From NCBI GenBank assembly GCA_965235115.1, contig OZ249436.1, positions 14,818,001 to 14,882,000 of the forward strand: 64,000 bases of DNA. Direction: 5' to 3'. Source of the stretch: Laetmonice hystrix. Lineage: Eukaryota. Positions 45,001 to 48,000 of this stretch are shown in pieces (within the stretch, counting starts at the first letter, position 1; each line of letters begins with the position of its first letter). Made by a program: the position numbers.

Positions 45001-48000
45001 ATAAGAGTGGACTTGATTTAGAATTTCATAGAAAGTAAACAAGATTCTTTTAGGTAGCTAGTTGGTTTATCACTTCCCTCCTTCTAGCCCTATTACGAAG
45101 TATGAGATATGACTATTTTTTCTGTAGCCTTTCTAGAAGAAGTTGGTAAGAATTTTTAATAATTCTTCTGCTTGCATCGGTTACTTCATGTCATCGTCCC
45201 TCATTCTGTATGGGCCTAGTGCCAATTTAAGTCGGCCCAGTGGTCGCACAGCCGTAATAAACATCACTTACATAAAGTTTCAAAAGGGAAGAACACACCT
45301 ACACCTACGCCTATAAGCCTACGTATGCAAAAAAAAAAAAATCTAGAATTGACCAAAGACTCTCAGAAATGGTTTCTGGGCCTGGGTCTGGACTGGGAAT
45401 TTACGGCGCGTCCTGGTAATCTTATGGCGCCATCTGGTGTGAATATTGAAGCAGCGAGCATGGTCGTCCGAATTTGACACCAAACGGCATTTTGGTTCCC
45501 TCTCATTATTGTTTTGAGGCCTTTTGATATTTCAGAAATAGAGGAATCACACGATGCAGTCCCACCTTGTATGTATATGATGTTATCCGGAATGCTTGCT
45601 GAACAGATTTGCTTGAATACACGAAGGCACTGTCGTTTTCCGCCAGTGGTTAGGCTACCACTGTTCAGGACGGGCTGTGAAGCATGTCAGCCAACGTGCA
45701 CTCACAATTTTAAATGAGATCTCCCACAGATTGTCAGGATCAGAATAACTCGTGGATAATCCATCGAAAGAGAAATCTTAACGTGTGTTATCGTAGCCGT
45801 ATAGGTTCCCCGGTATGCCTACCTATTCTACTCATTTTTTTCATTTTGGATTTTCTTTAGATGTCACTAAGGCTACTCAATAAGTGGCGCTTAAACATAT
45901 ATTTTCAATTTGGTACAGGTTAACCATATATGATAATGATCAACAATTGCATATAATATTGGATATAACTGAACAAGGCGAAGTGAGGGAACTATTCAAA
46001 CTACAGCTCAAAGTGGAAACCTGGGAGCGCCACCTTGCGACATCCCGCGGAATCAGATAAATCAGATTCCGTCTAAAAGGCCTACTGCTACTAGACCATT
46101 GGCTACCAATTCAAACAGGTTCAATTTTTTCAACCCGCGCTGTAAAAAAAAACAACGTTTTCCAATGAAGGAAATTAAGGGTAAATTTAAATTGGAGGAA
46201 TGGTGTTTAATTTTAAATCTTAAAAGATACTGAGAAGATAATAGTTGTTCACACAGGCCTCACACGTTTAAAAACAAAATGTGACATCAGAACAGGGAGC
46301 TGTTTGCCTTACGAGGTTATAAATACTCTCCAAGGTGTCTTCAGGAATATTCACCCTCCAGGGCGAGATTGACGAGAGGACTTAGAACACGTGCGTACAT
46401 GCGTAATTACGCCTAAAAAAGGGATATATCATTGGGTTTCTGCGGCATCGATTCATTCTGTCAGAGTGAATCTGGTCGGTTGTGACTTGATCGCACATAC
46501 TTCACTCGGGACACTGTCACATACCACTTTATAAGTCGATCACTAGACACTGTTGATTGAAACGGTACCTCTTCCAGACCGTCCCAGCGACAGGGCTTAA
46601 CATGTCGTCTCCTGCTGTGTCATGATTAATGTCATGTACATGTGTCATAAACCTGGAGTCGCAAGGCCCTCACACACTCGTGTACTACTGCATAATGCGC
46701 ATCATGTTTCGCCTTCACCACCTCTATACCGTATATAATATGGATTTTATAATTAAAATATGAGAAATACATAAATTCCACATGTATGATATTGCGATAT
46801 GTCCGGTAAGTGTTTTAAGTGATTCGTACTTTGCACGGTGCAGTTCAAAATTTGGCAGTTATGGTTATTGTGAGAGAAAAATCTTTTCTTCCTCAATCCA
46901 GGAAAAAAACATTGACAGATTTCGTAATATTAACAACACATGCCCATTTAGGACACCATTTGAAGATAGAGCGTCTGAAATTTACCACGCCATCATTACG
47001 TACGGAGTTGTGGTACTATCCCAAACAGAACTATTTATTACAGTGATGAGAAGAGTTTAACTTTTTTATTTTCTAGTGAACATGCCTTTCTCAAAAATGC
47101 TGAAGGAGAAAAGTACCCCTACAAGTCCGCGACGAAGTGGGGGACGTATCGGCTCCTCGGTGTCAAGGTGAGTGTCACTGGCAGTGGTACTGGAAACTAG
47201 GAGTAAGCCCTACCTCATGTTTGTTGTGGCTTGTTTGTTCTTCTTCTTCTTATTCTTCTTGTCCGTCTTTCTTCTTTTTTATTTCTACTTCTTTTTTCTT
47301 CTACTCGGTCGTCGTCGTCATCTCCTCCTTCGTTTTAACCTTGTTCTTGTTCTCCTTTCTCCTGTTCTTCTTTTTCTTCTTAATTTCCTTCTCTATTTTC
47401 TTCGTCTGTTTCATCGTCCTTTTCCTCCTTCATCTTCTACTGTTTCTACTTCTACTTTTTCTTCTACGTCGTCGTCGTTACCTCTTGTTCTTGTTCTTCT
47501 TTCTCTTTTCAGTTTAATTTCTTTCTCTATATTCTTCGTCTCTGTTTCATCATCCTTTTCCTCCTTCATCTTCTACTGTTTCTACCTCTACTTTTGCTTC
47601 TAATTCGTCGTCGTCGTCGTCGTCATCTCCTTCCTTTTGTCCGTGTTCTTGTTCCTCCTGTTCTTTTTCTTCATAAAGTGCTACAGACATCACATAGGCA
47701 CCTTTACTGATCTAAATAGATCACTGTGAGTTGTAGACGTATCCGGGATAGGTTTTTCTGATAAATTAACATTTGTAAAAATATTGACAATTTGAATCAC
47801 GCTGCCCGTGATGACGTAAGCACCAACTGGCGGGTGGACCCTGGACGGGAGGCGACTGGCAGACAGATGGCCAGCAGAAACCGGCTGAATTGGTCATTTT
47901 GATCACGGATTACAGTTCACGTTGTTGTACAACAACCGTTCCTTTACAGAACAACGAGAACATTACAAGTATTATCGGGATCTGGTGCAAAATTTCATAG

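What the first reader, a model, noticed from the sequence alone, without database searches (positions are those of the whole stretch)
45536..45568. Junction-encoded dependency: AA-starting cassettes create a TAA stop unless a G-ending exon precedes them
Seen in sequence: the CKT exon ends in a lone T (ACC T|). Candidates 45536 (AA ATA...) and 42876 (AA CCA...) start with AA, so a direct splice gives T|AA = stop. Candidates 38121, 42538, 42876 and 44411 all end in G, which gives G|AA = Glu. Exon 45536 ends in T and restores T|TG = Leu into 47077. Inference: productive inclusion of these exons is coupled to an upstream cassette (for example 44411 plus 45536). The unpartnered form would be an NMD target or a channel truncated before RCK2.
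Basis: partly seen in the sequence, partly recalled or inferred. Interest (0 to 1): 0.65.

Follow-up and report, generated by a model that had tools for sequence, protein, structure and literature searches.

The report
Junction stop at candidate BK microexon
In an annelid BK potassium-channel gene, a plausible but unproven 33-base alternative exon would read as a stop codon if spliced straight onto the preceding constant exon and as glutamate if another optional exon comes first; this follows from a codon split across the splice junction and is of modest interest until transcripts are seen.

Summary
The window carries an annelid BK (slo-1/slowpoke) gene on the + strand. It is not human.

**Sequence facts: all correct.**
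- The constant exon 33527-33603 ends in a lone T, so the following intron is phase 1.
- The next constant exon, 47077-47167, starts with TG, giving T|TG = Leu.
- 45536-45568 is a 33-nt open segment bounded by AG and GTATGT. It starts with AA and ends in T.

**The pattern itself is not beyond chance.**
- 174 of 617 open, phase-compatible AG..GT segments in this intron start with AA, AG or GA.
- 14 of 19 homology-defined exons in the window end in G, which is the donor consensus.

**How exon-like the candidates are.**
- 45536-45568 ranks 4th of 617 on splice scores and 14th of 617 on linker-like composition. No decoy in 110 kb of control sequence passes both cut-offs.
- The other AA-starting candidate, 42876, looks like a decoy.
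- No transcript or homologue shows 45536 in use.

**Verdict.** The dependency follows from the sequence if the exon is real, which I put at about 45%. It is best read as a passive split-codon effect in a phase-1 cassette array, not as a demonstrated coupling device.

The parts
33527..33603 (+). Constant exon ending in a lone T (phase-1 donor GTAAGT). It encodes the Cys-rich end of RCK1.
   Evidence: tblastn to annelid BK proteins P0003, P0004 and P0006; splice sites.
37473..37508 (+). Conserved 36-nt phase-1 cassette that starts TG and ends G. Its inner translation is KMFKKGANALI.
   Evidence: blastp-short hits to Lineus (E 9.9e-6), Capitella (1.4e-5), Lingula (2.8e-5), Owenia (5.7e-5) and bivalves (0.003). 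Sequence. Splice scores are weak, rank 90 of 617.
38121..38216 (+). Status open.
   Evidence: Splice rank 82 of 617 and composition rank 120 of 617. No homologue.
39462..39497 (+). Unlisted 36-nt candidate with the best splice sites in the intron. Starts AC, ends G, donor GTGAGT.
   Evidence: Acceptor 10.4 and donor 10.6, rank 1 of 617. Composition rank 206 of 617. No homologue.
42538..42597 (+). Status open.
   Evidence: Splice rank 60 of 617 and composition rank 221 of 617.
42876..42911 (+). Probably a decoy.
   Evidence: Splice rank 50 of 617 and composition rank 567 of 617. No hit at E<=50.
44411..44473 (+). 63-nt phase-1 cassette that starts CC and ends G. It is the likely real upstream partner.
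   Evidence: Splice rank 5 of 617 and composition rank 3 of 617. It is the best local match in the intron to the 20 residues that precede the 47077-type exon in P0124, with 5 identical residues starting at the predicted acceptor.
45536..45568 (+). The finding: a 33-nt candidate microexon that starts AA and ends T, with acceptor tttcag and donor GTATGT. Its inner translation is IEESHDAVPP.
   Evidence: acceptor 9.1, donor 5.6; rank 4 of 617; rank 14 of 617; joint test. No homologue.
47077..47167 (+). Next constant exon. It starts TG and ends AG, leaving a phase-2 intron.
   Evidence: P0004 joins the upstream exon directly to this exon type. P0124 residues 21-51 align here at 71% identity.
53901..54039 (+). 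Following exon, where the linker ends and RCK2 begins.

Best explanation
The 13.5-kb intron 33604-47076 lies in the RCK1-RCK2 linker of an annelid BK channel gene. It holds an array of optional exons that all begin and end in intron phase 1, so each junction splits a codon after its first base.

The constant upstream exon contributes T to that codon, and every cassette supported here contributes G. The meaning of the first codon of any downstream exon therefore depends on its upstream neighbour:
- TG reads Leu after T and Val after G.
- CC reads Ser after T and Ala after G.
- AA reads stop after T and Glu after G.

45536-45568 is probably a genuine 33-nt microexon of this array. If it is used, it gives a full-length channel only behind a cassette that does not end in T, with 44411-44473, 1,062 nt upstream, the nearest. 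Spliced straight onto 33603 it gives TAA. That is a channel cut after RCK1, or more likely a message removed by nonsense-mediated decay.

I read this as a passive consequence of the split codon, tolerated by selection, not as an evolved interlock.

- Shown: the gene, the exon phases, the junction codons, two partner cassettes, and the above-chance exon-likeness of 45536.
- Inferred: that 45536 is spliced at all, that it co-occurs with a partner, and the fate of unpartnered transcripts.
For: **Gene and phases**
- Window exons match annelid BK proteins at 84-100% identity and solved BK chains.
- The 13 exon stretches 16223-47167, laid end to end in a script, have one frame with 0 stops against 29 and 30 in the other two.
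- P0004 shows the direct skip junction.

**Array**
- 37473-37508 is conserved across Lophotrochozoa.
- 44411-44473 is matched by P0124, which has Val at the junction to the 47077-type exon.
- Oyster isoforms show the same neighbour-dependent junction residues at this site, R or G and P, A, T or S.

**Exon-likeness of 45536**
- Acceptor score 9.1, within the leave-one-out range of real exons (-1.3 to 10.0). Donor GTATGT is the same hexamer as real exon 32446-32601.
- Rank 4 of 617 on splice scores. Rank 14 of 617 on linker composition, with 11 of 292 similar-length decoys as good.
- Only 44411 and 45536 pass the joint cut-offs in the intron. None do in 46 kb of other + strand sequence, and 0-3 in 64 kb of reverse strand depending on the cut-off.
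- The intron holds 4 strong candidates against 0.27 in Markov simulations and 1.07 per 13.5 kb in the other introns.
Against: - No transcript, protein model or homologue contains the 45536 peptide.
- P0124 goes from the 44411-type cassette straight to the 47077-type exon.
- The donor score of 5.6 is below every real exon's leave-one-out score (6.0-12.5).
- An AA start behind a T-ending constant exon is expected of a non-coding decoy (28% of decoys) and is unexpected for a cassette under selection.
- The joint cut-offs were set after seeing the candidate. The splice matrices come from 18-19 sites. The truly conserved cassette 37473 ranks only 90th of 617, so these scores discriminate poorly.
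- The source species itself appears absent from the protein sets. The best identity was 94%, so absence of hits is weak evidence either way.
Confidence: 0.45

Rival explanations
1. 45536-45568 is a pseudo-exon: an open stretch that happens to sit between a good AG and a fair GT and is never, or only rarely, spliced. The T|AA junction is then a coincidence without consequence.
For: - 28% of comparable segments would give a junction stop (174 of 617), as would 8 of the 20 best-scoring ones.
- There is no homologue or transcript evidence.
- Ranks 2 and 3 on splice score, 41419-41517 and 43442-43510, have decoy-like Cys- and aromatic-rich translations. Good splice scores alone therefore do occur by chance here.
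- The donor score is below all real exons.
Against: - Passing both the splice and the composition test is rare in controls: 0 of 1890, 0 of 2652, and 7 of 200 simulations.
- The only other segment that passes, 44411, has homology support.
- The region is not repeated elsewhere in the window and encodes no Pfam family.
Confidence: 0.4
2. 45536-45568 is mainly a poison exon. It is spliced directly after 33603 in order to make a TAA-containing message that is degraded, which lowers BK channel output. Productive use behind a partner cassette would be secondary or absent.
For: - Direct inclusion puts TAA at the junction, with at least seven further exon junctions downstream inside the window. That is the usual geometry for nonsense-mediated decay.
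- Poison exons are known in ion-channel genes, for example SCN1A 20N (PMC11981616; search listing and abstract only).
Against: - The stretch behind the junction is open, has linker-like composition and ends in T, which restores the normal Leu. A pure poison exon needs none of this.
- There are no data on its usage.
- The conservation typical of regulated poison exons could not be tested.
Confidence: 0.12

Closest known systems
Cassette exons at the RCK1-RCK2 linker splice site of vertebrate KCNMA1 (the STREX site)
   Same: The position in the protein is the same, directly after the Cys-rich ...KKC.C.. exon and ahead of RCK2. Optional in-frame inserts sit in a disordered linker. STREX is described as an RCK1-RCK2 linker splice variant in PMC4122160 (one passage read).
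   Different: None of the window's cassettes shows sequence similarity to the vertebrate insert. That STREX follows this exact exon is my recollection, not a call result. No junction-stop dependency is described for it in what I read.
Linker cassette arrays of other lophotrochozoan BK genes (oyster, Lineus, Lingula and Owenia isoform models)
   Same: Several small optional exons lie at the same site. The FKKGA-type cassette is shared. The junction residue changes with the upstream neighbour, R or G and P, A, T or S.
   Different: The junction residues imply that the bivalve constant exon ends in C, and the Capitella and Lingula exons in G. With C or G no junction stop is possible. Only T-ending lineages can have one: this window, Owenia and P0004, judged by Leu at the junction. 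No homologue of 45536 was seen in them.
Ragged (split) codons at alternative junctions (Biosurfer, PMC10980011)
   Same: A codon split by the junction changes meaning with the partner exon. The paper reports this for 3,213 of 19,263 internal altered regions in human annotation (abstract and passages read).
   Different: The passages I read describe single-residue changes, not a stop that makes one exon depend on another.
Intragenic splicing coordination in C. elegans slo-1
   Same: It concerns the same gene family, and splice choices at separate sites are not independent. This is as summarised in PMC4039745 (passages read), which cites Glauser et al. 2011. I did not read that paper.
   Different: There the coordination is between distant sites, depends on an intronic motif and was shown by transcript counts. 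Here the link is between neighbouring cassettes, arises from the reading frame, and is not shown in transcripts.
Poison exons and alternative splicing coupled to nonsense-mediated decay
   Same: Inclusion of a short exon introduces a premature stop well upstream of later junctions.
   Different: Here the stop is not inside the exon but is made at the junction, and only with one of several possible upstream exons.

Membership tests
BK / Slo1 (slowpoke, KCNMA1) channel gene | Exons encode the S2-S6 pore module and RCK1/RCK2, with high similarity to known BK proteins | tested here: met
   3366 of 3377 candidates hit at E<=0.001, and the named ones are BK/slowpoke proteins carrying PF03493 and related domains. 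19 exon stretches align to P0003, P0004 and P0006. Solved BK chains match at E 1.2e-18.
Alternative cassette exon of the RCK1-RCK2 linker | Lies in the linker intron, is bounded by AG and GT, has a length divisible by three and is open in the phase-1 frame | tested here: met
   45536-45568 is 33 nt, bounded by AG and GTATGT, and open.
Alternative cassette exon of the RCK1-RCK2 linker | Seen spliced into transcripts or transcript-based protein models | tested here: not met
   45536 has no match among 31 distinct linkers from the 64 of 120 fetched proteins that had both anchor motifs. No word-sharing protein was found. Only two repetitive, unrelated proteins turned up among the representatives. 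The source species seems absent from these sets, so this is weak evidence. By contrast 37473 and 44411 do meet the feature.
Alternative cassette exon of the RCK1-RCK2 linker | Conserved with its splice sites in the orthologous intron of related species | not testable with these tools
   No collection of eukaryotic genome contigs was open. A related genome exists behind P0121, but its DNA could not be read.
Poison exon (splicing coupled to nonsense-mediated decay) | Inclusion creates a premature stop more than about 50 nt upstream of a later exon junction | tested here: met
   This holds only for the direct 33603|45536 junction, which reads TAA. Later junctions are at 45568, 47167, 54039 and onward. 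The 50-nt rule is recalled general knowledge.
Poison exon (splicing coupled to nonsense-mediated decay) | The isoform is stabilised when decay is blocked | not testable with these tools
   This needs RNA from the animal.
Coordinated (mutually inclusive) exons | Co-occurrence on single transcripts beyond independence | not testable with these tools
   This needs long reads. The one related transcript-derived protein, P0124, has the 44411-type cassette without a 45536-type exon.
Ragged / split codon at an alternative junction | The codon spans the junction and changes meaning with the partner exon | tested here: met
   By sequence, T|TG is Leu and G|TG is Val, and T|AA is a stop and G|AA is Glu. 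Val is seen at that junction in P0124 and Leu in P0004.

The most novel reading that the evidence does not exclude
The lone T of the constant exon and the AA start of the microexon form a selected, cis-encoded AND gate. Only transcripts that also carry a G-ending partner cassette can express the acidic 45536 insert, and nonsense-mediated decay erases every other combination. Exon combinations in the BK linker would then be enforced by the genetic code at the junction, not by splicing factors alone. The T end, which restores the normal Leu, would be part of the same design.
Probability: 0.1. Interest if true: 0.55.

Novelty: new member of a known kind. Interest (0 to 1): 0.3.

Why it matters
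BK channels are tuned largely by which small linker exons they carry, and how combinations of such exons are kept sensible is an open question. The best-studied case is C. elegans slo-1.

If 45536 is real, this locus would be a simple case in which the reading frame at a split codon filters exon combinations, and it could be tested with long reads. It would also show that which combinations are allowed depends on the last base of the constant exon: T here, apparently C in bivalves and G in Capitella and Lingula.

If 45536 is not used, the finding is only a reminder that about a quarter of intronic AG..GT segments behind a T-ending phase-1 exon give a junction stop.

The practical gain for annotation is the cassette map: 37473 and 44411 are supported, 39462 is likely, and 42876 is unlikely.

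Tried and rejected
**Searches for 45536**
The stop-to-stop frame around it is only 36 aa, so that exon could not be searched. Exon 53902-54039 was searched instead.
- A 41-aa unaltered window translation centred on 45536 found no protein sharing three words.
- The 79-aa open frame around it gave two hits among 1.84 billion representatives. Both are tandem-repeat proteins. For P0127 the matched query stretch (residues 49-68) lies wholly in the intronic part of the frame. For P0126 the stretch (19-56) also spans the 10 exon residues, but at only 25% identity. I rejected both as irrelevant.
- Cluster members of P0006, P0124 and P0004 could not be listed because the database was switched off. Isoform variety inside those clusters is therefore unseen.

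**Alternative readings considered**
- Exonised mobile element or overlapping gene: no second copy in the window, no Pfam family in 12 of the 28 intron ORFs of at least 75 aa that I scanned, no Rfam family and no tRNA-like gene.
- Alternative acceptor 6 nt downstream at 45542: it also gives a stop after T (T|AG) and scores -3.7, so it offers no rescue.

**Weak or uninformative results**
- tblastn of 120 fetched BK proteins against the intron found only the 47077 exon, because the short cassettes fall below its reach.
- A weak similarity between 39422-39460 and the end of exon 53901-54039 (E 0.5-4) was treated as chance.

**Literature**
- Searches for a described junction-stop dependency found none. 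The nearest concept is ragged codons. This is not an exhaustive search, and one search failed on term length.

**Not done or not available**
- All searches were made exon by exon.
The genome contig collection holds only bacteria and archaea and was not used.

Full report
**What the window is**

The + strand carries most of a BK (slo-1/slowpoke/KCNMA1-type) potassium-channel gene. A 53-aa exon translation (33159-33317) hit 3366 of 3377 candidates at E<=0.001. The best were annelids: Paralvinella palmiformis and Capitella teleta at 94% identity, an unnamed record P0004 at 92%, and Owenia fusiformis at 89%. The nemertean Lineus followed at 85%, then brachiopod, mollusc and crustacean BK channels. 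No hit was identical, so the source species itself seems not to be in the protein set. The window is not human.

tblastn of P0003, P0004 and P0006 placed 19 exon stretches between 16223 and 60062. I fixed their borders on AG/GT. Laid end to end inside a script, the 13 stretches from 16223 to 47167 have one frame with no stop, against 29 and 30 stops in the other two. Solved BK chains match exon 33159-33317 at residues 546-598 and exon 53902-54039 at residues 700-726. The intron in question therefore sits in the RCK1-RCK2 linker.

All searches were made exon by exon.

**The observation**

- The exon 33527-33603 ends ...ACC T before GTAAGT, which makes a phase-1 intron.
- The next constant exon starts at 47077 with TG. 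P0004 joins these two exon types directly with Leu at the junction.
- 45536-45568 follows tttcag and precedes GTATGT. It is 33 nt, open, starts with AA and ends in T.
- 42876-42911 starts with AA.
- 38121-38216, 42538-42597, 42876-42911 and 44411-44473 end in G.

Hence T|AA is a stop, G|AA is Glu, and the T end of 45536 restores T|TG, Leu.

**Is the pattern more than chance?**

The intron 33604-47076 contains 617 AG..GT segments of 21-150 nt that preserve phase 1 and are open.
- 174 of them (28%) start with AA, AG or GA and would give a junction stop behind T. So would 190 of 752 of all AG sites in the intron.
- 14 of 19 homology-defined exons in the window end in G, which is the donor consensus. 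Only 151 of the 617 decoys do.

So 'two candidates start with AA' and 'the partners end in G' carry no information in themselves. What is unusual is the T at the end of the constant exon.

**Which candidates look real**

I built position matrices from the window's own 19 donors and 18 acceptors. Leave-one-out scores are 6.0-12.5 for donors and -1.3 to 10.0 for acceptors.

| Segment | Splice-score rank (of 617) | Composition rank (of 617) |
|---|---|---|
| 45536-45568 | 4 | 14 |
| 44411-44473 | 5 | 3 |
| 42876-42911 | 50 | 567 |
| 42538-42597 | 60 | 221 |
| 38121-38216 | 82 | 120 |
| 37473-37508 | 90 | 9 (partly circular) |

The composition score contrasts the amino-acid make-up of relatives' linkers with intron translations. 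It is partly circular for 37473, whose homologues are in the training set. For 45536, 11 of 292 similar-length decoys score as well.

Joint tests:
- With cut-offs at 45536's own values, passers were 0 of 1890 candidates in 46 kb of other non-exon + strand sequence and 0 of 2652 on the reverse strand. 7 of 200 Markov simulations gave at least one passer.
- With looser cut-offs, only 44411 and 45536 pass in the intron, none in the other + strand sequence, and 3 on the reverse strand.
- The intron holds 4 strong splice pairs, against 0.27 expected from simulation and 1.07 per 13.5 kb in the other introns.

Caveats:
- The cut-offs were chosen after the fact.
- The matrices are small.
- The one cassette that is certainly real, 37473, scores poorly. 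These scores can therefore promote a candidate but cannot dismiss one.

**Homology**

- 37473-37508 (inner translation KMFKKGANALI) matches the same position in Lineus, Capitella, Lingula, Owenia and bivalve BK proteins, at E 1e-5 to 3e-3 against 31 distinct linkers. A stretch beginning KGAAAVLA at residue 629 of solved chain 9dkl_A looks like the same cassette. It starts TG and ends G.
- Searching exon 53902-54039 gave 6 hits among 32 candidates. One is P0124, a 502-aa protein from a 4.3-kb contig that spans several exons.
  - Its residues 21-51 align to exon 47077-47165 at 71% identity.
  - The 20 residues before that find their best match in the whole intron at 44411, with five identical residues starting exactly at the predicted acceptor. 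The score is 35, against 32 for the next (unrelated) hit and 26 for the reverse-strand maximum. The margin is modest.
  - The junction residue in P0124 is Val where P0004 has Leu, as G|TG against T|TG predicts.
  - So a 44411-type, G-ending cassette is probably real. In that one record it is joined straight to the 47077-type exon.
- 45536 gave nothing.
  - The best blastp-short E-value was 34.
  - No protein of 73-2000 aa shares three words with the 41-aa stretch around it.
  - The representative search returned two repetitive, unrelated proteins.
- 42876 and 39462 also gave nothing.

**Context from relatives**

Oyster isoform models show the same kind of array at this site, with neighbour-dependent junction residues. 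One cassette is preceded by R directly after the constant exon but by G after the FKKG-type cassette. The next exon is preceded by P, A, T or S. These residues imply a constant exon ending in C in bivalves, and in G in Capitella and Lingula. With either base no junction stop can arise. The possibility exists only where the exon ends in T, as here and, judging by Leu, in Owenia and P0004.

**Mechanism and rivals**

- Best reading, confidence 0.45. 45536 is a real microexon of a phase-1 cassette array. Its first codon is stop behind the constant exon and Glu behind any supported cassette, so productive use needs a partner. This is a passive split-codon effect.
- Pseudo-exon and coincidence, 0.40.
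- Chiefly a poison exon, 0.12.

The first and third are not exclusive. The short 1,062-nt intron between 44473 and 45536, against 10.8 kb upstream, might favour joint inclusion. That is inference only.

**What is known**

- The linker site is a classic BK splice site; STREX is called an RCK1-RCK2 linker variant in PMC4122160.
- Non-independent splice choices are documented for C. elegans slo-1, as summarised in PMC4039745.
- Junction codons that change meaning with the partner exon are catalogued as 'ragged codons' (PMC10980011).
- Poison exons occur in channel genes (listing and abstract only).
- My searches found no description of a junction stop that makes one frame-preserving exon depend on another. 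This search was limited.

**Verdict**

It hangs on an exon that no data show in use, and the pattern that drew attention is what chance gives. The lasting results are the cassette map and the point that the T-ending constant exon restricts what may follow it.

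Noticed in passing
window 37473-37508: A 36-nt phase-1 cassette (FKKGA motif) is conserved in nemertean, brachiopod, bivalve and annelid BK proteins. It ends in G, so it is another possible partner for AA-starting exons. Its splice scores are weak.
   Followed up: yes
window 39462-39497: A 36-nt open phase-1 segment has the best splice sites in the intron: a long pyrimidine tract with ttgcag, and donor GTGAGT. It starts AC and ends G. No homologue was found, but it is likely a further cassette.
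   Followed up: partly
window 31906-31948 and 31971-32013: A 43-nt direct repeat, 98% identical and 65 nt apart, duplicates the acceptor and first part of constant exon 31975-32127 just upstream of it. Using the upstream copy's AG would add 65 nt and shift the frame.
   Followed up: no
window 47674-48872: A foldback of about 1.2 kb, with four inverted-repeat segments of 61-115 nt at 90-98% complementarity, lies about 500 nt downstream of exon 47077-47167. It may be a mobile foldback element and might affect splicing of the neighbouring exons.
   Followed up: no
window 47227-47672: About 450 nt of CT-rich, low-complexity direct repeats start 60 nt after the donor of exon 47077-47167.
   Followed up: no
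window 10678-11315 and 11371-11586: A 42-nt minisatellite (11 overlapping 219-nt register copies reported) is followed by a 28-nt repeat array. Both lie in an upstream intron or in flanking sequence.
   Followed up: no
window 45620-45680: The translated intronic stretch just downstream of 45568 weakly resembles tandem-repeat proteins P0126 and P0127 (E 3e-10 and 5e-4). There is no second copy in the window.
   Followed up: partly
P0124, residues 52-108: The related annelid protein carries about 55 extra residues between the 47077-type and 53901-type exons that have no counterpart in the direct 47167|53901 junction here. Intron 47168-53900 may therefore hold further cassettes.
   Followed up: no
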